A DNA stretch of 28,792 nt from positions 1 through 28,792 of the IMG/VR virus record IMGVR_UViG_2778261570_000004. One strand, given 5' to 3'. Of the stretch, positions 3,217 through 28,189 are shown in pieces. The position numbers and the translations under genes were made by a program. Source of the stretch: a virus (lineage: Duplodnaviria; Heunggongvirae; Uroviricota; Caudoviricetes). The first letter of the stretch is position 1, and every line of letters begins with the position of its first letter. Below the pieces are notes generated by a model that saw nothing but the letters and a program-made list of their open reading frames with translations, did not search any database and was not told the origin of the DNA.

Positions 3217-3292
3217 GATGGTGTAGCTCAGCGGTTAGAGCGGTTGACTGTTAATCAACGGGTCGATGGTTCAAATCCATCCACCATCGCCA
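3217..3292 (+). tRNA. tRNA-Asn (anticodon GTT)
   Basis: Manual cloverleaf: acceptor GATGGTG/CACCATC, D-arm GCTC..GAGC, anticodon loop CTGTTAA, T-arm GATGG-TTCAAAT-CCATC, encoded CCA. Confidence 0.85.
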
Positions 3293-3294
3293 AT

Positions 3295-3370
3295 GCCGGT
3301 TTAGCTCAGTTGGTAGAGCGCCTGCCTTGTAAGCAGGATGTCAGCGGTTCGAGTCCGTTAATCGGCACCA
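3295..3370 (+). tRNA. tRNA-Thr (anticodon TGT)
   Basis: Manual cloverleaf: acceptor GCCGGTT/AATCGGC (one G-U), anticodon stem CCTGC/GCAGG with loop CTTGTAA, T-loop TTCGAGT, encoded CCA. Confidence 0.85.
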
Positions 3371-3460: not shown

Positions 3461-3582
3461 GAATGCGCAGGCTGATGCGCGAAAGACATTGCAGCTATTG
3501 CGGAAAAGAGCTGTTCGGCGGGGCAATTAAACGCCCGTGAGAGTCTGAAATAACCGCAAGCCGGAGATCAGCACCGGTCATC

Positions 3583-3657
3583 ACAACACAACAGGTAAGG
3601 GCATTCTCCCTTATGGGGCTTGGCTTAAATGCATCGAGTGCTCTTACCGTTGTGATG
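3583..3657. repeat. hairpin module copy 3
   Basis: CATCACAACACAACAGGTAAGGG ... CTCTTACCGTTGTGATG. Confidence 0.4.
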
Positions 3658-4018
3658 AAGTGCAGCTCTTTGAAGCAACCAGAAGATAAGCATCTGGCTT
3701 CACAACATAAACCGCAGGAACGACCAATAAACGGTAGTCCGTATGGAGAACACCCCGTTGAGGAAGAGGCCTGGCCGGAACCGTAACCGGCACTATAACG
3801 TTGAGAACACTGGCGTAACGGGTTCATATCCCAATCTACAGGTCCACCAGGAATGCTCTTTCCGTTGCGGTGAATGCGGCTAAGCGCACGCGGAACAGTT
3901 AAAACAATCCTCCTTAATGGTTAAACATTCCGACGTTAATTGTTAACTGGTTAACGTCACCGGGAGGCACTCGGCACCGCAATCTAATAAATATGTCACT
4001 TTTATTGAGGGATAACCA

Positions 4019-4453
4019 ATGTTCGGTAAATTGTTCGGCAAGAAAGTCGCTTCTGCAAAAGTAGAGCTGAAAAAAGTTGAGAATCGCGATCTGATGGAGG
4101 CCATCATCGGTGGCTGTTTGTTGGTGTCTGCCGCTGATGGTGAAATCGAAAAAGAAGAAACAGCGAAACTTGATCAGCTTGTCCGCTCTAATCCGCGTCT
4201 TAGTCATTTTGGTAACGAAATTACTGCAACAATTACCCGCTTTACCGAGCAACTGGAAGCTGGCTTCCGTGTTGGTCGCATGAATATCCTTCGCGAAATT
4301 GAAGATATCAAAAACGATCCAAAAGAAGCGGAAGAAGTATTCGTTAACATGCTGACAATTGCAGAAGCGGACGGTGAAATCGAGCCAGCAGAACACAAAG
4401 TACTGGAAGAAGTAGGCCGTCGTTTAGGTCTTCGTGTGGAAGATTATCTGTAA
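4019..4453 (+). CDS. TerB-like protein (tellurite-resistance TerB family; resembles P1 TciA)
   Basis: Repeated ADGEIE...E motif (SAADGEIEKEE, AEADGEIEPAEH) typical of TerB; SD GAGGGA before ATG. Confidence 0.65.
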   Translation: MFGKLFGKKVASAKVELKKVENRDLMEAIIGGCLLVSAADGEIEKEETAKLDQLVRSNPRLSHFGNEITATITRFTEQLEAGFRVGRMNILREIEDIKNDPKEAEEVFVNMLTIAEADGEIEPAEHKVLEEVGRRLGLRVEDYL

Positions 4454-4617
4454 TGGCAAGCAAGGCACGTATCGCAATCGCCATTGGTTTTCTCTTGCTG
4501 TCCGTGCTGGTGGATTTCACCAGCACAATCCTGTCAGTTTTATCGGACGGGGCGTTGGTGGCAGTAGCTGTAACATTGGTATGGCCGATATTAAAAACAG
4601 CTTCTAAGGATCAGTGA
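4453..4617 (+). CDS. small hydrophobic peptide (54 aa), translationally coupled (TAATG)
   Basis: MASKARIAIAIGFLLLSVLVDF...; stop/start overlap with TerB-like gene; below track size cutoff. Confidence 0.45.
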   Translation: MASKARIAIAIGFLLLSVLVDFTSTILSVLSDGALVAVAVTLVWPILKTASKDQ

Positions 4618-4724
4618 TGGGCTTCTGGGATTTTGCTGACAAGCATCCAATTGTTCTCGTTGTCATTGCTGGCATAGTTGTAGGCGGTATTGCTGGCGTC
4701 ATAGAAGCACTCAGGAAACAGTAA
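4617..4724 (+). CDS. small hydrophobic peptide (35 aa), translationally coupled (TGATG)
   Basis: MGFWDFADKHPIVLVVIAGIVVGGIAGVIEALRKQ; stop 4 nt before the tRNA. Confidence 0.4.
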   Translation: MGFWDFADKHPIVLVVIAGIVVGGIAGVIEALRKQ

Positions 4725-4727
4725 TCC

Positions 4728-4803
4728 GGCCCTTTAGCTCAGTGGTTAGAGCTGGCGACTCATAATCGCACGGTCACCGGTTCAAGTCCGGTAGGGGCCA
4801 CCA
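4728..4803 (+). tRNA. tRNA with anticodon CAT, ileX-like (Ile2 if lysidine-modified, otherwise Met)
   Basis: Acceptor GGCCCTT/AGGGGCC, anticodon loop CTCATAA, T-arm CCGG-TTCAAGT-CCGG, encoded CCA; strongly resembles E. coli ileX as recalled. Confidence 0.85.
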
Positions 4804-4992
4804 TATTTGGTTGTAACACGGCGTCTGGCACATGCGTCGTTAGCGGTCTGGTGACGTTAAAAGGGGGGAACCTTGCCCCTAGCTCAGGCAACGAACCAGG
4901 TAGCCGGAATGTGCAAGCCACCGTTTGTTGTTTCTCGGGTAAAGGGATTCACCATCCTGGCGATTCGGTGTGACAGCCGGGAAGAGTACGGC

Positions 4993-5045
4993 GCACAACA
5001 GGAAAAGGCGTTTAATTAACGTGAGCGCCGTTTCCGTTGTGGTAA
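4993..5045. repeat. hairpin module copy 5 (ACAACAGGAAAAGGCG / CGCCGTTTCCGTTGTGG)
   Basis: Same arm family as 2931, 3373, 3583. Confidence 0.35.
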
Positions 5046-5262
5046 TTGCGGCTATGCGCTCGTGACGAAGCCATTTTCATTCACTACGTTCTGATAAGTG
5101 ACGTCGCCAGGAGTGGCTAACCTGGCAGGTGGAGGCACCACCGCCACAACTCCTTTCAATTCATCATATAGCCGCTCAGGCTGTAACCCTTAATTAATAC
5201 GAAGTTTCGACATCTCTATCGGTTTAACCGAGGGATGGTCGCGCGTGTAAAAAGGAGACGTT

Positions 5263-5838
5263 ATGTTAACGGCGAACGATAACGCGTATGCAGAAGCAGA
5301 TCTCATATTCAGTGACTTCATCGGTCAGCGGGAACGCTGGACACAAAAGCGAGAGGAACTTTATGCCTCGTTAGTTCGCAAAGGTGTCAACATTGAAACC
5401 GCTCAAAGCGGCGATATGACGGTAGTCAGTGTTGGATTACATGGTGTGAGCGTGTCCGCAGCCAATCATGAGCCATACGTAGCGTTATCCGAGTCGATGG
5501 CAAGGCTAATTAAGTTTCTGAAGCAAACAGAAGCCAATAATGTTTTCATCGCCAAAAAGAACATCAATTTTTCTGCCGCCATGTTCTGGATGATGAAGGG
5601 GCTGGATGCCCGCCGGGCATCATGGCCTAAAGGGAGCTATTTATCGATGTTCCGTGGCAGCATTGGCAGCAAAGAAAAGCTCTTCGAATTCTTGCCGGAA
5701 GAGGCATTCGATATTGTGGAAGGGTGCGATGTGATGGTTATGCCTCGCCTGGTAATGATGAATGGGGATTTACAGGCGCAGACAGACTGGTTCGCAACTG
5801 GCGTGGATATTATCGCAACTGACTGGGAGGCATTCTGA
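5263..5838 (+). CDS. hypothetical protein with C-terminal DUF2829-like domain (191 aa)
   Basis: SD AAGGAG; C-terminal AAMFWMMKGLDARRASWPKGSYL...QTDWFATGVDIIATDWEAF resembles the DUF2829 pattern. Confidence 0.6.
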   Translation: MLTANDNAYAEADLIFSDFIGQRERWTQKREELYASLVRKGVNIETAQSGDMTVVSVGLHGVSVSAANHEPYVALSESMARLIKFLKQTEANNVFIAKKNINFSAAMFWMMKGLDARRASWPKGSYLSMFRGSIGSKEKLFEFLPEEAFDIVEGCDVMVMPRLVMMNGDLQAQTDWFATGVDIIATDWEAF

Positions 5839-6230
5839 TGTACGAGACAACAAAATTAAGCATTCACGAAGTCTCCAACGTGGAGTGGAATATCGTCACC
5901 TGTAAGATTGTATCGTGTAATGCTGCGCGTACTGATGCAGGCCATAAGAGCACGATAACAGGCTACATGGTAATGGCTTATAGGGGATTGAGAGTTCGCT
6001 TTATCTGGAAAGCTCGGCAATTGACACCATTCAGAGAGCCGTCAATGCCATTAGAGGTAGAACAGGATTATTTAAGCCTGCCGGAAATAGACGGTGCAAC
6101 GCTGGTGGATTCTGATGGTCGTAAGGCTGATTTTGAAGTCAGCTTAAAGGTGGCGCAGGCCGTAATTAATAACTCACGTGGTAAGTGGATCGCTAAGGTA
6201 AAACACGTCGTTCGCTTATCTCGCTGGTAG
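5838..6230 (+). CDS. hypothetical protein (130 aa), coupled to upstream gene (ATGA overlap)
   Basis: ORF with start overlapping preceding stop. Confidence 0.5.
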   Translation: MYETTKLSIHEVSNVEWNIVTCKIVSCNAARTDAGHKSTITGYMVMAYRGLRVRFIWKARQLTPFREPSMPLEVEQDYLSLPEIDGATLVDSDGRKADFEVSLKVAQAVINNSRGKWIAKVKHVVRLSRW

Positions 6231-6338
6231 TGTTAGATGAATGGAATTAATTTTCTAATATAACCAACTTTTTGCCAGTCTATACAGAAATAACATTCTC
6301 ATTATCATCCCCTCGGTCATTTCCTGCCCGGGGGATTA

Positions 6339-6731
6339 ATGGAGCATATCAGCAGCGCAGAAATTGCGGATATCATGATTAGGGCTGACTGCTATCTGAC
6401 AGTCACCGAAATTACCACTCTAGCTAAAGAAAAATATCCTCACCTTCATGTTTCACGCGTAAGTGTAACCAACATCATTCGGCATTTTGTGCGGTCAAGC
6501 CGAGCTATTTGTGAGCTTGATGATCGTGTTTACCCACGGAAATACTGGTTGCATGGCCTGAACGGATATCAGTTCAAGGTGCGCGGGCGCACCCCTGAAT
6601 ACGGCAGTTTGCTGGTTAAAAACTGTAGCCGGAAGTCTGCAGAACTGGCGCGACAAGAGCAGCGCAAGCTGGTGGACATGGCTAATAAGCTGTGGAATGC
6701 CGCAGTTAAAAAGCGTGGTGTTGCTTTATGA
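6339..6731 (+). CDS. hypothetical protein immediately upstream of terminase genes (130 aa)
   Basis: ORF; 4-nt overlap with terminase small subunit gene; position analogous to a late-gene activator in P1-type phages, not verified. Confidence 0.55.
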   Translation: MEHISSAEIADIMIRADCYLTVTEITTLAKEKYPHLHVSRVSVTNIIRHFVRSSRAICELDDRVYPRKYWLHGLNGYQFKVRGRTPEYGSLLVKNCSRKSAELARQEQRKLVDMANKLWNAAVKKRGVAL

Positions 6732-9671: not shown

Positions 9672-10709
9672 TTACCAGAGTTTAGCGGCGTGCTGTGTTT
9701 GGGAGAAAGTGAACCCGTAACGTTCTTCTATGGTTTTACCGTATCTTTTCCGCGCGTCTGTCAGTTTTATGCCTGTCAGGTCATCTCCGGATGTCATCAT
9801 TACGTCTAACAAATCCAGATCCATTTTATTCAGTCTCGCCATCGCTTCGCGTGCTGTCTGTATTTTACGCTCAATGATATGGCGAATAGCCGGATCGGCT
9901 TCCTCAAGCATTTTGGCTGATTTGTTCTTTAAGCTCTCATTGCGGATGTCGATGTTTCGCAAGATGTATGACTTCGCAACATAGCTTGGTTGGTGTTTCT
10001 CCAGATCGCGAACGCGATAGAGACTAAAGTCACCAAGCAGGCCGCAAGGTATCGACTCAACCCCAGAATAAATAGTAATGCTGCGACGTTCGCCGACATT
10101 ATTAACAACGGGCACTGTGGTGTTCGGAAGTTTTGCGAACACTAAGGCTCCGTGTGCGCCTACCCTGAATCGTGACAGAGCATTGCTGCCTTCAATGTTT
10201 GTTGTAAGCACTACATCTGTGTATCCATCTTTGCGCGCCCGGTAAACTTCCCCTTCAGGTTCTGATGCGAAAAAACGGCGCTCTTCTTCAAGTGCACCAA
10301 CAATCTGCGAAAATATCTTGTTTTTCAGGCTTTTCTTTATAATTGCATCATATTTTTTGAGCAGATTTTCGCGCGTAAATGAGCGGGTGGTGGTCGCGCT
10401 TTGCACAACAATATGCGTGCTTTGATTTGTGTCCTCGATAATGAATGGGATCGGAGAATATACAGACTCAACAATGTTAGACGCTTTGCCGTCAGCGTTA
10501 CGGCACAAGTCAACAAAGGCTTTCCATTCTGTGAGGCACTTTTCAGCTTCTTCTAGCACATTCTGATCATGTGTTAGTGCAACATGGCGGAATTCCTCGC
10601 CGGAATAACTGGTATCATGGAAAACAGAGTTTGCGACCACCAGCTCTTTCCACCGTTCAGCGGTTTGCAGGAACCGTTTGTACTCTTTCTCGATCGACTT
10701 CTTACTCAT
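9672..10709 (-). CDS. hypothetical protein (345 aa) at the position occupied by the c1 repressor in P1; candidate master repressor
   Basis: Long ORF convergent with terminase, divergent from recombinase; operator-like motif 15-35 bp upstream of its start; no motif recognised by eye. Confidence 0.55.
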   Translation of the reverse strand: MSKKSIEKEYKRFLQTAERWKELVVANSVFHDTSYSGEEFRHVALTHDQNVLEEAEKCLTEWKAFVDLCRNADGKASNIVESVYSPIPFIIEDTNQSTHIVVQSATTTRSFTRENLLKKYDAIIKKSLKNKIFSQIVGALEEERRFFASEPEGEVYRARKDGYTDVVLTTNIEGSNALSRFRVGAHGALVFAKLPNTTVPVVNNVGERRSITIYSGVESIPCGLLGDFSLYRVRDLEKHQPSYVAKSYILRNIDIRNESLKNKSAKMLEEADPAIRHIIERKIQTAREAMARLNKMDLDLLDVMMTSGDDLTGIKLTDARKRYGKTIEERYGFTFSQTQHAAKLW

Positions 10710-10723
10710 TATTCCTACTCGAT

Positions 10724-10744
10724 TTAGTTTTCTAACATAAAATT
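10724..10744. promoter_or_regulatory. operator-like motif copy 4 (reverse orientation, TTTAGTTTTCTAACATAAAAT)
   Basis: Same motif family; directly upstream of the 345-aa gene. Confidence 0.45.
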
Positions 10745-10910
10745 ACTATGACAAATCTATGCCGAATAACAGGGTGAGTAAAGGATCAAGATGCATTTTT
10801 TTATCATCAAATTTAGAAAATTCTGCTTAAAAACTGCCAGGCATAACTTAAAGCCCACACCAGCAATGCATTGCCCATCTGCGCGGAAAGGAAAAAAATT
10901 CCTAAATTTC

Positions 10911-10942
10911 TAACTTTAGATAATTGGCATTATTTAAAGTTA
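10911..10942. other. rox-like recombination site (TAACTTTAGATAAT-TGGC-ATTATTTAAAGTTA)
   Basis: 14-4-14 palindrome with one arm mismatch; matches the rox target of Dre as recalled at 31 of 32 positions; about 150 bp upstream of the recombinase gene. Confidence 0.8.
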
Positions 10943-11094
10943 GGCTATAATTATGGGTAGATGATCAGTATTGACATCACTGAAAATACGTGCCTCGAAT
11001 CAAAGGCTTGAATCTTGAAAATTAACTTATAGCTACCCTGTCATTTTTATATTTTTCGCGTAGCGTCATCTGTATATAGAGGTTAAATAGTTTC

Positions 11095-12123
11095 ATGAGT
11101 GAATTAATTATCTCTGGCAGCTCCGGTGGTTTTCTGCGCAACATTGGCAAAGAGTACCAGGAGGCCGCAGAAAACTTTATGCGGTTCATGAATGACCAGG
11201 GGGCTTACGCGCCGAATACTTTGCGCGATCTCCGGTTAGTGTTTCACTCCTGGGCGAGATGGTGTCACGCTCGCCAGCTCGCCTGGTTCCCGATCTCACC
11301 AGAGATGGCCCGCGAGTATTTTCTTCAGCTGCATGATGCTGATCTGGCTTCGACCACCATTGATAAGCACTACGCCATGCTTAACATGCTGCTTTCGCAT
11401 TGTGGCCTTCCGCCACTTTCGGATGATAAAAGTGTTTCTCTGGCTATGCGGCGCATCCGGCGTGAAGCGGCAACTGAAAAAGGCGAACGAACAGGCCAGG
11501 CTATACCGCTGCGGTGGGACGATCTGAAACTGCTCGACGTCCTGTTGTCCAGGTCAGAACGGCTGGTGGACCTGCGCAACCGGGCTTTTCTCTTTGTTGC
11601 ATACAATACGCTGATGCGTATGTCGGAAATCTCGCGTATTCGTGTAGGAGATCTGGATCAAACAGGTGACACTGTCACGCTACATATTTCACACACGAAG
11701 ACAATAACGACCGCCGCCGGGATTGATAAGGTGCTTTCCCGTCGCACTACCGCTGTGCTGAATGACTGGCTGGATGTTTCCGGGCTTCGCGAACATCCTG
11801 ACGCAGTGTTGTTCCCGCCGATACACCGTAGCAATAAGGCCAGGATCACGACAACGCCCCTTACTGCACCTGCAATGGAGAAAATATTCAGCGACGCCTG
11901 GGTGTTGCTGAATAAAAGAGATGCTACGCCAAACAAAGGAAGATACCGGACGTGGACCGGGCATAGTGCACGCGTCGGGGCCGCTATTGATATGGCTGAA
12001 AAGCAGGTGTCTATGGTGGAGATCATGCAGGAAGGAACCTGGAAGAAACCGGAAACACTTATGCGGTATCTTCGCCGTGGCGGCGTGTCTGTGGGGGCTA
12101 ATAGCCGCCTGATGGATTCGTAA
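11095..12123 (+). CDS. dre: Cre-family tyrosine recombinase, Dre-like
   Basis: Alignable by eye to P1 Cre (HSWARWC, SVSLAMRRIRRE, RNRAFLFVAYNTLMRMSEISRIRVGDL, WTGHSARVGAAIDMA, LMRYL catalytic Tyr); adjacent rox-like site. Confidence 0.85.
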   Translation: MSELIISGSSGGFLRNIGKEYQEAAENFMRFMNDQGAYAPNTLRDLRLVFHSWARWCHARQLAWFPISPEMAREYFLQLHDADLASTTIDKHYAMLNMLLSHCGLPPLSDDKSVSLAMRRIRREAATEKGERTGQAIPLRWDDLKLLDVLLSRSERLVDLRNRAFLFVAYNTLMRMSEISRIRVGDLDQTGDTVTLHISHTKTITTAAGIDKVLSRRTTAVLNDWLDVSGLREHPDAVLFPPIHRSNKARITTTPLTAPAMEKIFSDAWVLLNKRDATPNKGRYRTWTGHSARVGAAIDMAEKQVSMVEIMQEGTWKKPETLMRYLRRGGVSVGANSRLMDS

Positions 12124-12143
12124 ATTAAAATTCTAACACATCT
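12123..12143. promoter_or_regulatory. operator-like motif copy 5 (reverse orientation)
   Basis: AAATTAAAATTCTAACACATC just after recombinase stop and about 55 bp before the next operon. Confidence 0.4.
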
Positions 12144-12196
12144 TTTTAGATTAACGCCTTTGCTGTAAAGTACCCTCGCCTATTTAGGAGGGTGCT

Positions 12197-12541
12197 TTGC
12201 AGAGTCAAATCACGGAATCAAGACGCTTCAAGGTGGATGGTTACACCGTAACCTTCGCCGCTGGTGTTAAGAACAGTCATGCTGTCGTTGTGTTCGGCAT
12301 CATGACCGGGCTTGAGGCCGTCCCTGTGTTTACCCTCGAAAAAAACTGGCGAAATCTGGAGGAAGCAGAAAGCTACGTCCGGAAAGTAACCATCATTGCC
12401 GCCGAAAAACTCCTGGCCCACTATCAGGAAAATTATCGCACTATGGTCGAGAAGATTAATCTCGCTTTCACTCGCCCCACTACCGGCTTTATTGCACCGG
12501 ATACTAATGCCGGTCGATATCCTGCAAGGGGGCGTCGGTGA
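12197..12541 (+). CDS. hypothetical protein (114 aa, TTG start)
   Basis: AGGAGG 5 nt upstream of TTG; first gene of a tightly coupled six-gene operon. Confidence 0.5.
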   Translation: MQSQITESRRFKVDGYTVTFAAGVKNSHAVVVFGIMTGLEAVPVFTLEKNWRNLEEAESYVRKVTIIAAEKLLAHYQENYRTMVEKINLAFTRPTTGFIAPDTNAGRYPARGRR

Positions 12542-13014
12542 AAACTTATTACCCATCTCTGAATTGTTACCCGTCTTCCTATCCAGAATTATCCGGGAAG
12601 CTGTTAGCTCTATTAGCTAAAGCACCTACGGAATGGTTTAAGCCAGTCGTTATCAATCCACACTTCCTGGGTTACGGATCTGTTCGCACTCGTAACGAAC
12701 TCAAAAACCTACTGGCGCATGGATTCATTCGACACCGTGCCGGGAAAGGCTATCAGTTAGCGATTGCGCCAGAAGAGGCCGTGCGGCTATTCGCATATCG
12801 TGACAGCCAGACAAAAGCTCGGGTAATAGCTCAAATACTTCATAACGGCAGCACCTATGCCCGCCAGTTTGGCGGCGACACGTCGCAGTTCTTGCGGGCG
12901 GTGCGATCGCTGGAGGAGCAAGGAGTTATTGAAAGTTCCTGTCTTCCTGTTCCTACCGTTCCACATATCAAACGTCGGGTTTACACCTTCACGCAGAGAG
13001 CTAAAAAACAATGA
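12538..13014 (+). CDS. hypothetical protein, possible winged-helix DNA-binding (158 aa, GTG start)
   Basis: GTGA overlap with upstream gene, ATGA overlap with downstream gene; basic helix-rich segments. Confidence 0.5.
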   Translation: MKTYYPSLNCYPSSYPELSGKLLALLAKAPTEWFKPVVINPHFLGYGSVRTRNELKNLLAHGFIRHRAGKGYQLAIAPEEAVRLFAYRDSQTKARVIAQILHNGSTYARQFGGDTSQFLRAVRSLEEQGVIESSCLPVPTVPHIKRRVYTFTQRAKKQ

Positions 13015-13505
13015 TTTACGTAAAAGTGAAACGCCTACATCCGGCAGCAAAACTTCCAGCTTATGCCACCTCCGGATCGGCGGCGATGGATTTTGAGGCT
13101 GTTGAAATAAAACCATGCGTCGATAGCAATGGTGCAATTTCCTCAAGCTGGTGGGTGTATACCGGACTGGCTATGGAGATCCCGCCCGGCTGGTGTCTGA
13201 AACTCTATCCGCGATCAGGATTGGGCTGCAAAAAACATACTCGCCTGGCTAACTGCGTAGGAATTATCGACTCCGATTATCGCGGCGAAATCATGGCAAA
13301 ACTGATTACTGATCCAGGCGGGGAAGGCGTTTGTCTCAAGCCTGGAATGGCTGTCATGCAAGGAATTTTTGAGCGTGTTGAACAAGTCTCACTAGTCGAG
13401 GTTGAGGAACTCAACGAAACGGAGCGTGGTGCTGGTGGCTTTGGTAGCACATCGGAAGGCCACTTTGAAATTAAGCGTTCACCGCTTCAGTACGAAAAGT
13501 TATAA
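13011..13505 (+). CDS. dut: dUTPase homolog (trimeric Dut family) with divergent motif IV
   Basis: Motifs SGSAAMDF, YPRSGLG, GIIDSDYRGE, RGAGGFGSTSEG present; motif IV reads GMAVMQ where E. coli Dut has GERIAQ. Confidence 0.7.
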   Translation: MIYVKVKRLHPAAKLPAYATSGSAAMDFEAVEIKPCVDSNGAISSSWWVYTGLAMEIPPGWCLKLYPRSGLGCKKHTRLANCVGIIDSDYRGEIMAKLITDPGGEGVCLKPGMAVMQGIFERVEQVSLVEVEELNETERGAGGFGSTSEGHFEIKRSPLQYEKL

Positions 13506-13519
13506 GCAGAGAAAAGACT

Positions 13520-13960
13520 ATGAATAACATGGCAACGAAAGAGCTTTTTAAGTTCCGTCCCAAATACAAAGCTCACAAAAAAAATGGAACCACGGTCATC
13601 ATTACGGATGACAACGGCGTGATGATTAATCTTACCGGGAGCGTAACTATTTCTGCTGGTGGCATCACCACCCAGCAAGAAGAAATCGACCTTGAAGCAG
13701 CCGACTTTTCAGACGCGCTGATGTGGCTGAAGGAAGGCAAGAAAGTTGCTCGACGCGGGTGGAACGGCGAAAACCAATTCTGCTGGCTGGTTCCTGAAGG
13801 ACAGTACCCGGCACGAATGGAAGCCATTAAGGGATATTTCCCCGGCGACCTCGTTCCGTATGGTGCTTATTTCGCCTTAAAAAATGCACAAGGTGTAGTT
13901 GTTCCGTGGGTGCCTTCAGTTGGCGACCTGCTGGCCTGTGACTGGTTTGTTGTGGAGTGA
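13520..13960 (+). CDS. DUF2829-like protein (146 aa)
   Basis: C-terminal ALMWLKEGKKVARRGWNG...PWVPSVGDLLACDWFVVE matches the DUF2829 pattern as recalled. Confidence 0.6.
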   Translation: MNNMATKELFKFRPKYKAHKKNGTTVIITDDNGVMINLTGSVTISAGGITTQQEEIDLEAADFSDALMWLKEGKKVARRGWNGENQFCWLVPEGQYPARMEAIKGYFPGDLVPYGAYFALKNAQGVVVPWVPSVGDLLACDWFVVE

Positions 13961-13966
13961 TTTGAC

Positions 13967-14734
13967 ATGGAAAGCACTAAAACAATTCAATACCGCTTGC
14001 GTAATGGCCTGCTGGTGGCTGTTAACGCCGACATGTCACTGCCGTTTGACACGATTGAACGCACTATCATGACGTATCTCGGCTTTAATGAAGAGCTGAA
14101 TGAAGAGCATGGCGTAGCTATATGGAGTGATGCAGACAGCGGCGTTCGTCGTTACATCACCGCCAGGGGCAAAGACTACTCTCTGGAAGAACTGTTTGCC
14201 CTTGCGCAGTCTTTCGAATGTGTAGCATTAGACCTGTTTAATGATCCTGCTATAGCGCAACGACTTATACGCGAGCTTGGGCTATCCGTTACACCAATTA
14301 TATTTAAAAATGGCAGCCTGACTGGCACATGGCGCGTAGAACGCATCTCAAACTACCTTCCATATAACCGACAGTTAAATGGAGTAATCTCCGGCGTTAA
14401 CCAGCCCGTAGCGTGTGAAAATGTAAACCTGGTTGTCGCTGTTTTGGCAACCGCATGTCGTGTTATCGGTTTGGCTAAACAGGCATTTATTCATTTCCCA
14501 AATGGTGCAGAAGGTAGCGCAGAGATTATCGCGTGTGATTTCGAATTTACCTGGATGCTACGCGAATATCTGGACCAAACAGTATTCCGTGCCGAAGAAC
14601 TGGATATGTATATCACGTCAACGATTCCAGACGATGTGCGAGCTGAAGCAATCGCTACAGCCAGGGCGAAATGCCGTGCGGCGATTGCAGAACAGGCCAA
14701 AGAAGAAGTTAAGGAAGTGGCAGATGGCGACTAA
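13967..14734 (+). CDS. hypothetical protein (255 aa)
   Basis: ORF; SD-like AAGGAAG for the next gene lies in its 3' end. Confidence 0.55.
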   Translation: MESTKTIQYRLRNGLLVAVNADMSLPFDTIERTIMTYLGFNEELNEEHGVAIWSDADSGVRRYITARGKDYSLEELFALAQSFECVALDLFNDPAIAQRLIRELGLSVTPIIFKNGSLTGTWRVERISNYLPYNRQLNGVISGVNQPVACENVNLVVAVLATACRVIGLAKQAFIHFPNGAEGSAEIIACDFEFTWMLREYLDQTVFRAEELDMYITSTIPDDVRAEAIATARAKCRAAIAEQAKEEVKEVADGD

Positions 14735-15818
14735 GAGCAATATTTATAAAGATCCGCGCTGGCTGTCGCTGGTGGAGAAATATAAAGACAATTGGGTACT
14801 GGCAGCAAAAGAATTGTTTGATATTGATTTAAGCCACCAGCAACAACAAATTGTTGAAGCTATACAGCCCAATAATGCAAAAGCTACTGTCACCACTCCG
14901 TATGGGATCGGACGACCGCAAGTGCTTGCTGTTATTAGTACCCTTTATACGATTATGTATCCTGATTCCCGGACAGTAATTGTTTATCCAAAATCAAATG
15001 TTTGCAAAAGAGGAATTGTTGCATATGTGTGGCAATGTTGGGAGGCATTGCTGAAAAAACAACCTTTTATCATTGAGTATTTTAAGGTCGGTGATAGCGG
15101 TCTGATGTTCAATGAATTTTGGGGAATGTGCTTTTGTAACTTCCGCCTTAACTATGAAGATAGCATTGCAGGTCACTACGCCGACCATCTTTTATTCATT
15201 ATTGTGGATTCCGCACATATCAGCGATCGGGCATACAGCATTGTGTGGGCAAGCATGACTAGTGGTGATTCACGCATATTGCTCACTTCAATTCCGTCAC
15301 CAGAGGAAATAGGCTTTTTTTATGATTCACATCATGGACGTGCTTTAGCTGAAGATAATCCGAGTGGTGTATATAAAGCCATTAAGCTGAGTGCGGAGGA
15401 TTCACCATTTATTACCCAAGAATATCTTGATCATTTTGCCGAAAGGTATGGCGGGCGAAATAGTGATGACTATCGTCGTATGATTCTTGGTGAGTTCCCT
15501 GGTATTAGGGAGGCTGTTCTTGAATCAGATATGCCGAAGACAATGCGCTTTTCGATGCCTGATGGTAGTGAATGGACAATACCATTACGAGTGATAGCCC
15601 GGCATCATGCGCAGCACCACGCCAAAAAACATGGCGTCACGACATTAGAATGGTTGAAATCGCACACCATTCCACTCTTCACTGCAGATCACAATGCTAT
15701 CGTTGAGTGGGCAAAAACAATTCCGTGGGAGAATGTCGCTGAATACGCCCACATGCTAAAACCGCCGAAAGACAGGCAAGAAATTAGCTGGCTGACAGCA
15801 GAAAAAATCATTGAGTGA
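14724..15818 (+). CDS. terminase large subunit paralog with degenerate Walker A/B and no nuclease domain (364 aa; track ORF 14433 is an upstream frame extension)
   Basis: By-eye alignment to the 8092 protein: DPRW, SHQQQ, FFYDSHH, YGGR conserved; GHGTGKS becomes PYGIGRP, ILDEAS becomes IVDSAH; unrelated C-terminus. Confidence 0.65.
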   Translation: MATKSNIYKDPRWLSLVEKYKDNWVLAAKELFDIDLSHQQQQIVEAIQPNNAKATVTTPYGIGRPQVLAVISTLYTIMYPDSRTVIVYPKSNVCKRGIVAYVWQCWEALLKKQPFIIEYFKVGDSGLMFNEFWGMCFCNFRLNYEDSIAGHYADHLLFIIVDSAHISDRAYSIVWASMTSGDSRILLTSIPSPEEIGFFYDSHHGRALAEDNPSGVYKAIKLSAEDSPFITQEYLDHFAERYGGRNSDDYRRMILGEFPGIREAVLESDMPKTMRFSMPDGSEWTIPLRVIARHHAQHHAKKHGVTTLEWLKSHTIPLFTADHNAIVEWAKTIPWENVAEYAHMLKPPKDRQEISWLTAEKIIE

Positions 15819-15853
15819 TAGTAAGAAGCCCGCCTGGTTGAGCGGGCTTCTTT

Positions 15854-16234
15854 TCAAATATTGGAACCATATAGTTCACGTAGTTTTTTCGCTACTGAAG
15901 ATACGGGGATTTCACCAGTTGCAGCCCCCACTGCAAGCTCCACCAGCACGGGATCATCATATACCTGTATACCGTTACGGCGTAGAAATAGCAGCGCACT
16001 GTTTAGCGCGGTACGCTTATTGGCATCATTGAATATATGCCCTCTCGCCGTAGCCACCAGGTAGGTGGCGGAGACTTCGAAAAGGTCGGTGATCTCTTCG
16101 TAGGCAACTCTGGCCTGAACTCTCCCGATAATGGCCTCTGCCCTACCCGGATCTGACATTCCCGGCAGGCCGCCGTAGCGGCTTATATTCGCATCATGAA
16201 GCGCAATAAGTTCTTCCGGTGATATATGCCTCAT
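15854..16234 (-). CDS. doc: Doc toxin (Fic/Doc family)
   Basis: Near-identical over most of its length to P1 Doc as recalled ([39 protein letters not shown]...). Confidence 0.9.
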
Positions 16235-16455
16235 TATCGGTTAACCAGTTCCTTGTTGGTGGAGTCCAGGGTGTCAAACAGGGATGCAAATTCGGCATCC
16301 AGCGCCGCTTTTTTGTAGGCTTCAAAAGTAGCCTTGCTGACAATTACTGCTGGCTCACGGCCTCTGCGGGTGATTTCAACCTCTTCCCCGGCTTCAACAT
16401 TGTTGAGCACTTCAGAAAGGTTGCCACGCGCGGTACGGAAGTTAATGGATTGCAT
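16234..16455 (-). CDS. phd: Phd antitoxin (prevent host death)
   Basis: [49 protein letters not shown]... matches P1 Phd; start/stop overlap with doc. Confidence 0.9.
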
Positions 16456-16464
16456 AAACACCTC

Positions 16465-22107: not shown

Positions 22108-22146
22108 AATGCATACCGACTCTGTTTTGTTCCGAGCGGTAAAATA

Positions 22147-22187
22147 ATATGTTAGAAAACTAAAATCAATGTTCTAACGTAATTTTG
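22147..22187. promoter_or_regulatory. operator-like motif pair (ATATGTTAGAAAACTAAAAT plus ATGTTCTAACGTAATTTTG)
   Basis: Two motif copies, GTTAGAA and inverted TTCTAAC, in the intergenic gap inside the leftward operon. Confidence 0.45.
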
Positions 22188-26682: not shown

Positions 26683-26720
26683 GTCCTCCAAACATTTATC
26701 AGTGATGATATTAATGTTTT

Positions 26721-26757
26721 GTGTTAGAAAATCAATTTTGAATATCTAACTATTTTG
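26721..26757. promoter_or_regulatory. operator-like motif pair in divergent promoter region
   Basis: GTGTTAGAAAATCAATTTT plus inverted ATCTAAC; between the leftward operon and the Ref-like gene. Confidence 0.45.
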
Positions 26758-27877: not shown

Positions 27878-27982
27878 AATACTGACTGTTGCGCCATGGC
27901 ATTATCGTGGGGTATATTTCTACGGCACCTTAGAAAAACGGGTGCCGGGATTGGAACCCCGGATAATGTCAAAGGCGACACA

Positions 27983-28004
27983 GACGCCGAAAGCGTCTTT
28001 TTTT
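27983..28004 (+). terminator. rho-independent terminator (GACGC-cgaaa-GCGTC plus T7)
   Basis: Perfect 5-bp stem and run of seven T. Confidence 0.6.
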
Positions 28005-28189
28005 GTGTCATGCCATCGCACAGCCATACGTAGCGTTTAGCTCAGAGATCAATGGTAGTGCTGGCTGGGCTGCCGAAAGGCAGGCCGGTTCCCTTTGACG
28101 CCGGTAGTTCCAACCCAGTCAGTGCTACCGCCATTGAGATTGGAACCTCACGCGGTAGCTCCTTAACTTAGTCAAAGGAGGCTGCCAAT

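What the first reader, a model, noticed from the sequence alone, without database searches (positions are those of the whole stretch)
12123..15818. Operator-fronted six-gene operon between the recombinase and doc, a candidate accessory system
Six tightly coupled genes (overlaps GTGA, ATGA, short gaps) begin about 55 bp after an operator-like motif and end convergent with doc. Content is atypical for a core phage function block: two unknowns, a winged-helix-like protein, a dUTPase with a divergent motif IV, a DUF2829-like protein and the degenerate terminase paralog. In P1 the post-cre region carries ref, mat, res and mod, so this block sits where accessory cargo usually lies.
Basis: inference. 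Interest (0 to 1): 0.75.

Follow-up and report, generated by a model that had tools for sequence, protein, structure and literature searches.

The report
Repressor-gated accessory operon with immune-signal sponge
This is a conserved six-gene operon of a D6-type phage-plasmid that sits behind a probable repressor binding site and carries non-essential helper genes, including a likely sponge for bacterial immune signals and a catalytically dead copy of the DNA-packaging enzyme. It looks like a mix of separate modules, not one new system.

Summary
Six same-strand genes (12197-15818) are coupled by 4-nt, 4-nt and 11-nt overlaps and 14-nt and 6-nt gaps. They begin 55 bp after a repeated 17-22 bp motif and end at a hairpin terminator facing doc.

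The window is a D6-like phage-plasmid. The motif has 10 intergenic copies against 2.25 expected, including sites upstream of c1 and lpa, so it is probably the D6-type C1 operator.

- **g1:** homolog of P1 c8.
- **g2:** lineage-specific; the HTH assignment is unproven.
- **g3:** dUTPase with Arg-to-Ala in motif IV.
- **g4:** Tad2-family domain, 46% identical to ModTad2, a His-ADPR and cUMP sponge.
- **g5:** P1 isaA homolog.
- **g6:** PacB paralog with a terminase ATPase fold but no Walker A Lys, Walker B Asp or nuclease domain. It is fused to a widespread unnamed ~90-aa domain.

All six genes are under purifying selection. g1-g5 are syntenic across the D6 lineage. g6 is present in some relatives and absent in others. 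In P1-like phages, tad2, isaA and the g6 homolog lie in different combinations in the C1-controlled ssb operon.

Best reading: an early, repressor-gated accessory and counter-defence operon assembled from independent modules. "Accessory" is supported; "a system" is not. The pseudo-terminase is the novel piece.

The parts
9672..10709 (-). C1-type prophage repressor (context: the probable binder of the motif)
   Evidence: 89% identical to D6 orf1, 'prophage repressor, similar to P1 C1'. 81% identical to orthologs carrying PF27008 Phage_P7_repressor_C1. A motif copy lies at 10720-10741, just upstream of its start.
11095..12123 (+). dre tyrosine recombinase (cre analog), immediately upstream of the block
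   Evidence: PF00589, 3.4e-17. The D6 annotation reads 'similar to P1 cre'. A promoter-like site lies upstream at 10924-10951.
12121..12142 (+). Operator-like motif TAAATTAAAATTCTAACACATC (probable D6-type C1 operator)
   Evidence: Family of 10 intergenic copies against 2.25 expected. Leave-one-out score 20.8 bits. Conserved in D6 and in divergent D6-like loci. Aligned on the TCTAA core, the family consensus matches the P1 operator consensus (as I recall it) at 11 of 16 positions by my own manual alignment; the annotated P1 Oref sequence is ATTGCTCTAATTGATTG. C1 binding has not been tested.
12163..12202 (+). 15-bp RNA stem-loop that buries the Shine-Dalgarno sequence AGGAGGG (12186-12192) and the TTG start of g1
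   Evidence: dG -25.7 kcal/mol, z = -4.58, 0 of 200 shuffles fold as well. Conserved in divergent loci, with one U-G to U-A change. A role in translational control is inferred.
12197..12541 (+). g1, 114 aa, homolog of P1 c8 (D6 orf117)
   Evidence: phrog_1968 at 4.1e-48, full length. P1 C8 hits the same PHROG at 6.4e-53. The pairwise alignment is collinear at 24% identity. Both genes lie directly after the recombinase. dN/dS 0.20.
12538..13014 (+). g2, 158 aa, lineage-specific protein (D6 orf116); a possible HTH protein, unproven
   Evidence: phrog_6669 only. Among phage records it is found only in D6. Nine clusters in the 5.8-billion-protein search, all Enterobacterales. No significant Pfam or PDB match; the best are EutK HTH at E 0.51 and a TrpR-like protein at E 0.4. 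dN/dS 0.06.
13011..13505 (+). g3, trimeric-type dUTPase
   Evidence: PF00692 at 1.7e-14. NCBIfam dut equivalog at 121.5 bits against a cut-off of 103. PDB dUTPases down to 2.3e-25. Motif IV reads GMAVMQ where homologs have G(E/M)RIAQ. dN/dS 0.13.
13520..13960 (+). g4, 146 aa: truncated N-terminal region plus a Tad2-family (DUF2829) domain at residues 58-146
   Evidence: PF11195 Tad2-like at 81.6 bits against a cut-off of 25. PDB 9eib ModTad2 at 8e-21, 8v3e Tad2, SPO1 Gp34.65 at 1.4e-09. 46% identical to ModTad2 over 89 residues. 79-residue in-frame deletion relative to the 225-233 aa forms. dN/dS 0.27.
13967..14734 (+). g5, 255 aa, homolog of P1 isaA
14724..15818 (+). g6, 364 aa pseudo-terminase: PacB-like ATPase-fold domain (residues 1-259) with a dead active site, plus an unnamed ~90-aa phage domain (residues 260-364)
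15823..15852 (+). Intrinsic-terminator-like hairpin between g6 and the convergent doc
   Evidence: dG -20.1 kcal/mol, z = -4.37, followed by CUUUUC. Also listed by the terminator scan.
15854..16461 (-). doc-phd toxin-antitoxin pair (context; convergent end of the block)
   Evidence: PF02661 Fic/DOC at 3.1e-09 and PF02604 at 3.1e-13.

Best explanation
The block is the operon that follows the recombinase gene in D6-type phage-plasmids. It is gated by the prophage repressor and carries dispensable helper genes. They have different origins and work separately, not as one machine.

Proposed mechanism:
1. In the lysogen, the C1-type repressor binds the 17-22 bp site that starts at the stop codon of dre. 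This either blocks read-through from the lysogen-expressed recombinase gene or represses a weak overlapping promoter. This step is inferred.
2. A 15-bp hairpin that buries the ribosome binding site and the TTG start of g1 further limits translation of g1 and of the translationally coupled g2. This step is inferred.
3. On infection or induction the operon is transcribed as one unit up to the terminator facing doc. This is inferred from the gene coupling, the absence of internal promoter-like sites, and the hairpin terminator.

Gene products:
- g1 is the homolog of P1 c8, a putative lysogeny-establishment function.
- g2 is a small lineage-specific protein, possibly DNA-binding.
- g3 hydrolyses dUTP during phage DNA synthesis.
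- g4 is a Tad2-family sponge. As a tetramer it would soak up nucleotide immune signals, blunting abortive-infection signalling early in infection. The closest characterised relative binds His-ADPR (type II Thoeris) and cUMP/cCMP (Pycsar). Family membership is shown; the ligand is inferred.
- g5 (isaA) and g6 form a separate two-gene cassette.
- g6 is a long-lived pseudo-enzyme derived from the packaging ATPase. It most likely acts by binding, not by catalysis. The partner could be a terminase partner or a host sensor of terminase. This is speculative.
For: **Identity of the element.** The block is 100% identical to E. coli plasmid pPSS-10_3 and 97.9% identical to phage D6 over 12000-14707.

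**Operator.**
- The motif family is enriched: 10 copies against 2.25 expected.
- All copies are intergenic.
- Copies lie upstream of lpa (PF25716) and of c1. I recall P1 having C1 operators at both of those places; that was not checked here.
- The site after dre is conserved in divergent relatives.
- P1 has the annotated C1 operator Oref after cre-c8 and Ossb in front of ssb-isaA.

**Single transcription unit.**
- The genes overlap or lie within 14 nt of each other.
- No promoter-like site lies inside the block.
- A terminator hairpin closes it.

**Real genes.** dN/dS is 0.06-0.36 for all six.

**g4.** Pfam Tad2-like at 81.6 bits. ModTad2 at 8e-21 and 46% identity. Tad2 functions are documented in bioRxiv 10.1101/2024.01.03.573942 and PMC12393519.

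**g1.** Same PHROG as P1 C8.

**g5.** P1 isaA homolog.

**g6.** Terminase ATPase fold with a dead active site.

**Modularity.**
- In P1-like phages, Tad2-like plus isaA (SJ46) or isaA plus the g6 homolog (MH422554, 813R1) lie in the ssb operon.
- g6 is absent from D6 and from L008-L012.
- The g6 C-domain is found in 44 D6-like and about 121 P1-like plasmids.

**Dispensability.** An IS21 element sits in g5. P1 c8 and isaA are non-essential by CRISPRi.
Against: - No experiment links the motif to C1. The P1 C1 operator consensus (ATTGCTCTAATAAATTT, recalled, not taken from a tool) has no match within 4 mismatches anywhere in the window.
- No sigma-70 consensus promoter was found between dre and g1, so the transcription start is unknown.
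- g1-g5 are strictly syntenic in the D6 lineage. That would also fit a co-functioning unit.
- The ligand of g4 cannot be read from sequence, because Tad2 specificity varies widely within the family.
- g4 here lacks most of the N-terminal domain present in relatives. The effect of this loss is unknown.
- g2, g5 and the C-domain of g6 have no assignable function.
- The g6 model has only moderate confidence (pLDDT 64.5).
Confidence: 0.6

Rival explanations
1. The six proteins form one integrated multi-component system, either defence or counter-defence, and depend on each other.
For: Tight translational coupling. Strict synteny of g1-g5 across divergent D6-like elements. A single regulatory front end and a single terminator.
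Against: The modules occur apart. Tad2-like plus isaA, or isaA plus g6, lie in the P1-like ssb operon without g1-g3. g6 is variably present. g5 is interrupted by an IS in a maintained plasmid. Tad2 proteins work alone in published assays. No PADLOC model matches.
Confidence: 0.1
2. The block serves core lytic functions. Dut supports replication, and the PacB paralog with IsaA is an accessory factor of the pac-site packaging machinery, for example timing or fidelity of pac cleavage through PacA binding.
For: g6 keeps 37% identity to PacB across the whole ATPase domain, including the N-terminal helices. It is under purifying selection. It is encoded in phage-plasmids that use PacA/PacB. dUTPase is a common phage replication helper.
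Against: D6 itself and P1 itself lack g6 yet are viable phages. The g6 N-domain is only about 50% identical between two D6-like variants whose PacB proteins are 92% identical, so it does not track its own terminase. P1 isaA is non-essential.
Confidence: 0.15
3. The first two genes are a lysis-lysogeny regulatory pair (a c8-like factor plus an HTH-like DNA binder). The rest are passengers, so the block is mainly a regulatory operon.
For: g1 shares a PHROG and a position with P1 c8, annotated 'establishment of lysogeny, putative'. Weak start codons (TTG, GTG) and a hairpin burying the ribosome binding site suggest low, controlled expression. g2 has HTH-like sequence patterns. g2 has the lowest dN/dS, 0.06.
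Against: The function of c8 is itself only putative. No significant HTH match was found for g2. In P1, c8 is not behind the C1 operator.
Confidence: 0.1
4. g6 is a decaying remnant of a duplicated pacB and has no function.
For: The catalytic motifs and the nuclease domain are lost. The gene is absent from many relatives.
Against: The full-length ORF is kept in three alleles at 44-64% identity in the loci compared, and its C-terminal domain is present in 166 plasmids. dN/dS is 0.16-0.36. The C-domain is 97% conserved. g6 is translationally coupled to g5 in both the D6-like and the P1-like contexts.
Confidence: 0.05

Closest known systems
Tad2 (Thoeris anti-defence 2; Pfam PF11195/DUF2829), especially ModTad2/MoTad2 (PDB 9EIB, 8V3E)
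   Same: g4 residues 58-146 match the family far above the Pfam cut-off. They are 46% identical to ModTad2 over the whole 89-residue protein, including the RxGWNG and DxLAxDW motifs. Like published Tad2 genes, g4 is phage-encoded and sits among early genes.
   Different: g4 carries an extra N-terminal region, which is the remnant of a ~140-residue N-terminal part present in relatives. Published Tad2 proteins are about 90 residues and stand alone. The ligand is unknown. The loop after strand beta-2, which forms the second pocket in ModTad2 and HgmTad2, is allelic among D6-like plasmids.
P1 C1-controlled early operons: Oref-ref after cre-c8, and Ossb-ssb-isaA
   Same: An asymmetric operator-like site follows the recombinase region and fronts non-essential genes. 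The homologs c8 (g1) and isaA (g5) are shared.
   Different: The operator sequence differs from the P1 consensus (no match within 4 mismatches), as expected for a heteroimmune C1. The gene set is different: there is no ref, mat, res or mod. In P1, c8 lies upstream of the operator.
Terminase large subunit (P1/D6 PacB; T4 gp17-type ATPase)
   Same: The N-terminal 259 residues of g6 have the TerL ATPase fold and 37% identity to PacB.
   Different: The Walker A lysine and the Walker B acidic pair are replaced in every family member. The nuclease domain is missing. An unrelated ~90-aa domain is fused at the C-terminus.
Trimeric dUTPase (Dut; PF00692, TIGR00576)
   Same: g3 passes the NCBIfam equivalog cut-off, and motifs I, II, III and V are recognisable.
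   Different: The motif IV arginine is replaced by alanine (GMAVMQ). There is a 16-residue C-terminal extension after motif V.

Membership tests
Tad2 / DUF2829 immune-signal sponge (g4) | Sequence match to the Tad2-like domain model above the curated cut-off | tested here: met
   PF11195 at 81.6 bits against a cut-off of 25, E 5.9e-23, residues 62-145.
Tad2 / DUF2829 immune-signal sponge (g4) | Close similarity to a biochemically and structurally characterised member | tested here: met
   ModTad2 9eib at E 8e-21. 46% identity over 89 residues with one gap. SPO1 Tad2 at 1.4e-09 and HgmTad2/AcrIIA7 at 3.7e-11.
Tad2 / DUF2829 immune-signal sponge (g4) | Homotetramer with ligand pockets at the protomer interfaces | not tested
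No multimer tool is available.
Tad2 / DUF2829 immune-signal sponge (g4) | Binds gcADPR, His-ADPR or cyclic nucleotides and inhibits Thoeris, Pycsar or CBASS | not testable with these tools
   Needs co-expression plaque assays and ligand-depletion HPLC, as in bioRxiv 10.1101/2024.01.03.573942 and PMC12393519.
Terminase large subunit (g6) | TerL-type ATPase fold | tested here: met
Terminase large subunit (g6) | Walker A G-x-G-K-S/T with the catalytic lysine | tested here: not met
   PacB has GHGTGKS. g6 has PYGIGRP. Other family members have GIGQ, GIGH or GIGE at this position.
Terminase large subunit (g6) | Walker B hhhhDE | tested here: not met
   PacB has LLLILDEAS. The g6 family has IIVDSA, IVTEAA, IVAEAA, IVMDAA or IVINSA.
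Terminase large subunit (g6) | C-terminal RNase H-like nuclease domain | tested here: not met
   Similarity to PacB ends at residue 259. Residues 260-364 belong to a different family of mostly stand-alone ~100-aa proteins.
Trimeric dUTPase (g3) | Family model above the curated cut-off | tested here: met
   NF001862 at 121.5 bits against 103. TIGR00576 at 119.2 against 102.55.
Trimeric dUTPase (g3) | Five conserved motifs intact | tested here: inconclusive
   Motifs I (AAMDF), II (PRSGLG), III (GIIDSDYRGE) and V (RGAGGFGST) are present. The motif IV Arg is replaced by Ala (GMAVMQ against GERIAQ). The effect on activity is unknown.
P1 C8 family (g1) | Same protein family and same position after the recombinase gene | tested here: met
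   Both proteins match phrog_1968 over their full length, at 4.1e-48 and 6.4e-53. The pairwise alignment is collinear, E 0.061. P1 c8 follows cre.
P1 IsaA family (g5) | Sequence homology to P1 IsaA | tested here: met
   48% identity over 88% of g5, E 6e-66. phrog_2326 at 9.7e-134.
C1-repressor regulon of P1-type phage-plasmids (operator) | Member of a repeated asymmetric operator family scattered in intergenic regions, with a C1 homolog encoded by the element | tested here: met
   10 copies against 2.25 expected, all intergenic. Leave-one-out score 20.8 bits. C1 homolog at 9672-10709.
C1-repressor regulon of P1-type phage-plasmids (operator) | Match to the P1 operator consensus ATTGCTCTAATAAATTT (consensus recalled from my own knowledge, not from a tool) | tested here: not met
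   No match within 4 mismatches in the window. The only similarity is 11 of 16 positions when aligned on the TCTAA core (my own manual alignment); the annotated P1 Oref sequence was read.
C1-repressor regulon of P1-type phage-plasmids (operator) | Bound by the repressor, with the downstream genes derepressed on induction | not testable with these tools
   Needs EMSA or footprinting, and RNA-seq with and without induction.
Winged-helix / HTH regulator (g2) | Significant match to an HTH or wHTH family or fold | tested here: inconclusive
   No Pfam or NCBIfam hit. PDB profile searches give only EutK HTH at E 0.51 and a TrpR-like protein at E 0.4.
Known anti-phage defence systems (PADLOC-DB) | Any of the six proteins matching a defence-system model | tested here: not met
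   The best E-values are 0.017-0.051, all far below significance.

The most novel reading that the evidence does not exclude
The isaA plus pseudo-terminase cassette (g5-g6) may be a new kind of phage-plasmid weapon built from a catalytically dead copy of the packaging ATPase. It is present in about 165 P1-like and D6-like plasmids but missing from the reference phages P1 and D6. It could act as a decoy or blocker for host sensors that recognise the terminase large subunit (Avs-type immunity). Alternatively it could act as a dominant-negative inhibitor of a rival element's packaging. The fast-evolving N-domain (three alleles at 44-50% identity) and the near-invariant C-domain would then reflect an arms race. 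The location next to a Tad2 sponge in a repressor-gated early operon would make the distal half of the block a small counter-defence island.
Probability: 0.15. Interest if true: 0.8.

Novelty: new member of a known kind. Interest (0 to 1): 0.45.

Why it matters
D6-like and P1-like phage-plasmids are common in E. coli and Salmonella from humans, livestock and food, and they often carry resistance genes.

If g4 works as predicted, a repressor-gated early operon in these elements would carry a Tad2-family sponge. The closest characterised relative of that sponge neutralises type II Thoeris and Pycsar signals. This would give a concrete, testable reason why these elements spread across hosts that carry signalling defences.

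The pseudo-terminase is a clean example of an enzyme-derived binding protein kept by selection. Finding its partner could reveal either a new layer of control over pac-type packaging or a way for phages to evade terminase-sensing immunity.

The work also assigns g1 to the c8 family and shows that isaA normally travels with the pseudo-terminase. That pairing is hidden in P1 itself, where IS1 and the unrelated isaB follow isaA and no g6 homolog is present.

Tried and rejected
- **P1 C1 operator consensus** (recalled sequence ATTGCTCTAATAAATTT): no site within 4 mismatches in the window. The motif is therefore a different, D6-type sequence.
- **Sigma-70 promoter scan:** nothing between dre and g1 or inside the block. 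A weak conserved TTTAGA-N15-TAAAGT arrangement seen by eye remains speculation.
- **PADLOC:** no defence-system match.
- **g1:** no Pfam, NCBIfam or PDB hit. tblastn finds only D6.
- **g2:** whole-protein and C-terminal-half profiles against PDB gave nothing significant. No similarity to P1 Ref.
- **P1 isaB as a remnant of g6:** rejected, no similarity.
- **MAFFT alignment of the g6 C-domain to the PacB nuclease region:** treated as an artefact, because BLASTP shows no similarity there.
- **g6 C-domain:** no Pfam family is shared by its 58 sampled relatives. The weak DUF5076/3IC3 resemblance is not significant.
- **Plasmid hit annotated 'transcriptional regulator' next to a g1 fragment:** it lies in an IS26-rearranged remnant and says nothing about g1.
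- **afdb50 fold library:** not available.
- **Rfam:** no known RNA family in the block.
- **D6 genome paper (Virology 2018):** not held in the library.

Full report
**What the window is.** The region 12000-15900 is 100% identical to E. coli plasmid pPSS-10_3. It is 97.9% identical to phage D6 over 12000-14707, where similarity to D6 ends. Annotated relatives give the following local order:
- lpa, pacA and pacB;
- c1 on the opposite strand;
- the rox recombination site;
- the dre recombinase and the six-gene block;
- doc and phd, convergent with the block.

Direct checks on the window confirm the flanking genes. dre matches PF00589. doc matches Fic/DOC. phd matches PhdYeFM. lpa matches PF25716. 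The 345-aa ORF at 9672-10709 is 89% identical to the D6 'prophage repressor similar to P1 C1'. It is also 81% identical to orthologs carrying PF27008.

**Check of the observation.**
- Six plus-strand ORFs fill 12197-15818.
- The junctions are a 4-nt overlap (GTGA), a 4-nt overlap (ATGA), a 14-nt gap, a 6-nt gap and an 11-nt overlap.
- The starts agree with the PGAP and D6 annotations.
- No promoter-like site lies inside the block.
- A hairpin of -20.1 kcal/mol (z = -4.4) followed by a U run lies at 15823-15852, between g6 and the convergent doc.
- Every gene is under purifying selection when compared with a divergent D6-like lineage. dN/dS is 0.20, 0.06, 0.13, 0.27, 0.10 and 0.36 for g1 to g6.

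**The operator-like motif.**
- The sequence 12121-12142 (TAAATTAAAATTCTAACACATC) ends 55 bp before the TTG of g1. It begins at the stop codon of dre.
- The core AWTTTCTAAYA occurs 10 times in the window against 2.25 expected. No shuffle reaches that count.
- All copies are intergenic. The extended consensus is AAATTA-GTTTTCTAACA-TATT.
- A weight matrix built without this site scores it at 20.8 bits. Apart from two weaker candidate partner sites (18.4 and 13.4 bits), nothing outside the motif set exceeds about 11 bits.
- Copies lie just upstream of c1 (10720-10741) and upstream of lpa (6243-6264). I recall P1 having C1 operators at both of those places; this rests on my own knowledge and was not checked with a tool.
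- The P1 record annotates C1 operators in front of ref, after cre-c8, and in front of ssb.
- The recalled P1 consensus has no match within 4 mismatches.
- Aligned by hand on the shared TCTAA core, the two consensus sequences agree at 11 of 16 positions; the annotated P1 Oref sequence was read. This fits a related repressor with a different specificity.
- The site is conserved in D6 and in loci whose g2 protein is only 74% identical.
- I conclude that the motif is real and is probably the D6-type C1 operator. Binding has not been tested.

**How the front end may work (inferred).**
- No consensus promoter lies between dre and g1.
- Bound repressor at the dre stop codon could block read-through from the recombinase gene. 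Alternatively it could repress a weak overlapping promoter.
- A conserved 15-bp stem (12163-12177 pairing with 12188-12202) buries the Shine-Dalgarno sequence AGGAGGG and the TTG start. Its dG is -25.7 kcal/mol, with z = -4.58.
- Together with the weak TTG and GTG start codons, this predicts low, controlled translation of g1 and g2.

**g1 and g2.**
- g1 matches phrog_1968 over its full length at 4.1e-48. P1 C8 matches the same family at 6.4e-53.
- The two proteins align collinearly at 24% identity. Both genes follow the recombinase gene directly.
- g1 is therefore the c8 homolog. P1 annotates c8 as a putative lysogeny-establishment function, and c8 is non-essential for lytic growth.
- g2 is restricted to this lineage and is the most constrained gene of the block.
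- The pattern of g2 resembles a helix-turn-helix. No Pfam, NCBIfam or PDB search reached significance. The 'winged-helix-like' label remains a guess.

**g3.**
- g3 is a trimeric-type dUTPase. PF00692 matches at 1.7e-14, and the NCBIfam equivalog scores 121.5 bits against a cut-off of 103.
Homologs read G(E/M)RIAQ and g3 reads GMAVMQ, so the arginine is replaced by alanine.
- The effect on activity is unknown.

**g4.**
- Residues 58-146 match Pfam PF11195, now named the Tad2-like domain, at 81.6 bits.
- They match solved Tad2 proteins:
  - ModTad2 (9EIB) at 8e-21;
  - 8V3E at 1.1e-20;
  - HgmTad2/AcrIIA7 at 3.7e-11;
  - SPO1 Tad2 at 1.4e-09.
- Identity to ModTad2 is 46% over 89 residues.
- ModTad2 sequesters His-ADPR, the signal of type II Thoeris. 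It also binds cUMP and cCMP from Pycsar, in a second pocket.
- Across the family, members inhibit CBASS, Pycsar and Thoeris types I, II and IV. The ligand of g4 therefore cannot be assigned from sequence.
- g4 in this window and in D6 lacks 79 residues of an N-terminal domain that other D6-like plasmids and phage SJ46 retain.
- The loop after strand beta-2 differs between alleles.

**g5.**
- g5 is the homolog of P1 isaA (48% identity).
- Its family has only 14 clusters, all on contigs the size of P1/D6-type elements.
- The model (pLDDT 73) has no convincing structural neighbour.
- P1 isaA is non-essential for lytic growth.
- A natural plasmid carries an IS21 element inside g5.

**g6.**
- Residues 7-259 are 37% identical to the window's own PacB.
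- The model's best structural matches are terminase ATPase domains.
- In all six family members examined, the Walker A lysine and the Walker B acidic pair are replaced.
- The nuclease domain is absent.
- g6 is nevertheless not a decaying gene. dN/dS is 0.30 for the N-domain and 0.13 for the C-domain, and 0.16 against the P1-like version.
- The N-domain is only about 50% identical between two D6-like variants whose PacB proteins are 92% identical. g6 therefore does not co-evolve with its own terminase. This argues against a tight housekeeping partnership and fits an outward-facing role.
- The C-terminal 105 residues belong to a family with 225 representatives at E <= 0.001, mostly stand-alone proteins of about 100 residues.
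  - One member lies downstream of the DnaB-like helicase gene of Cronobacter phage JK004.
  - Another forms the C-terminus of a 471-aa protein in the recombination module of Xanthomonas phage Tenjo.
  - No Pfam model or solved structure matches the family.

**Is it one system?** The distribution says no.
- g1-g5 are syntenic in every D6-like locus inspected. The g1-g3 segment is found at 80% coverage or more in 126 PLSDB plasmids.
- g6 is absent from D6, which has a pdcA-like gene on the other strand. It is also absent from five of six divergent loci.
- The g6 C-domain is present in 44 D6-like plasmids and about 121 P1-like plasmids.
- In P1-like phages the distal genes sit elsewhere, downstream of ssb and upstream of hxr:
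  - Tad2-like plus isaA in SJ46;
  - isaA plus the g6 homolog in MH422554 and 813R1;
  - isaA, IS1 and isaB in P1 itself. P1 isaB is unrelated to g6.
- That P1 operon is also fronted by a C1 operator, Ossb.
- The Tad2 domain is identical between SJ46 and the D6-like plasmid pTB423, while their N-terminal domains differ. This indicates recent exchange.
- The block is therefore a mosaic of modules that repeatedly land in repressor-gated early operons.

**Verdict.**
- The block is accessory and contains at least one counter-defence gene.
- It is conserved within the lineage, so it is not variable cargo.
- Nothing indicates that the six genes act together.
- The Tad2 homolog is a new member of a known kind.
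- The pseudo-terminase with its isaA partner is the part most likely to hold something new.
- A search of the held literature for terminase paralogs or decoys found nothing relevant.

Noticed in passing
window 12163-12202: A conserved 15-bp RNA stem-loop buries the Shine-Dalgarno sequence and the TTG start codon of g1 (dG -25.7 kcal/mol, z = -4.58). Divergent D6-like loci keep it, with one U-G to U-A change. It is a possible translational gate or RNase III site.
   Followed up: partly
window 13520-13960; L006 3021-3698; L007 3021-3722; L015 3536-4381: g4 in this window and in D6 has a 79-residue in-frame deletion in its N-terminal part compared with the 216-233 aa forms in other D6-like plasmids and in SJ46. 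That N-terminal part has a weak match to the OB-fold region of the phage L Dec decoration protein (PDB 6e3c, E 0.006).
   Followed up: partly
L015 (phage SJ46) 3536-4381 against L006 3021-3698: The Tad2 domain is 100% identical between a P1-like phage and a D6-like plasmid, while the N-terminal domains are only about 55% identical. This points to recent exchange of the sponge domain between the two lineages.
   Followed up: no
window 22146-22183 and 26718-26755: Here the operator-like motif occurs as overlapping divergent pairs: a strong site on one strand and a weaker one (18.4 and 13.4 bits) on the other. As I recall, P1 also has bipartite C1 operators.
   Followed up: no
window 27925-28135, 3217-3367, 4728-4800: Rfam finds a C4 antisense RNA (28048-28135, 77 bits) preceded by an isrK-like RNA (27925-28003). 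These are the hallmarks of a P1-type immI region. It also finds three tRNA genes.
   Followed up: no
Bacillus phages JL (KC595512.2, 92496-92765) and Shanette (KC595513.2, 93206-93475): The Tad2 homolog of these SPO1-like Bacillus phages lies directly next to a dUTPase gene. This is the same neighbourhood as g3-g4 here, in unrelated phages. It may be chance or a recurrent association.
   Followed up: no
L005 (pF374-2) 3461-6354: An IS21-family element (ISEc62) is inserted in g5 of a plasmid that is otherwise 100% identical. g5, and probably expression of g6, are therefore dispensable for plasmid maintenance.
   Followed up: partly
window 15501-15815 (g6 residues 260-364): This ~90-aa domain defines a large uncharacterised phage protein family with 225 representatives. 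The consensus is MPDGSxWxVPVxxIAxxRAxxYAxEFGGD...DWAxNNMxWxDV. It has no Pfam model. Single members are fused to DUF1351, Phage_gp49_66 or Lar.
   Followed up: partly
window 10924-10951: A near-consensus promoter-like site (TTGGCA-16-TATAAT, 11 of 12) lies between c1 and dre. This is the region where D6 annotates the rox recombination site. An operator-like motif copy sits just upstream at 10898-10919.
   Followed up: no
L006 (pTB423) 5556-5602: In this D6-like plasmid the doc-phd pair is absent, and the block ends convergent with the humD-like S24 peptidase gene. The region after g6 is therefore a second variable spot.
   Followed up: no
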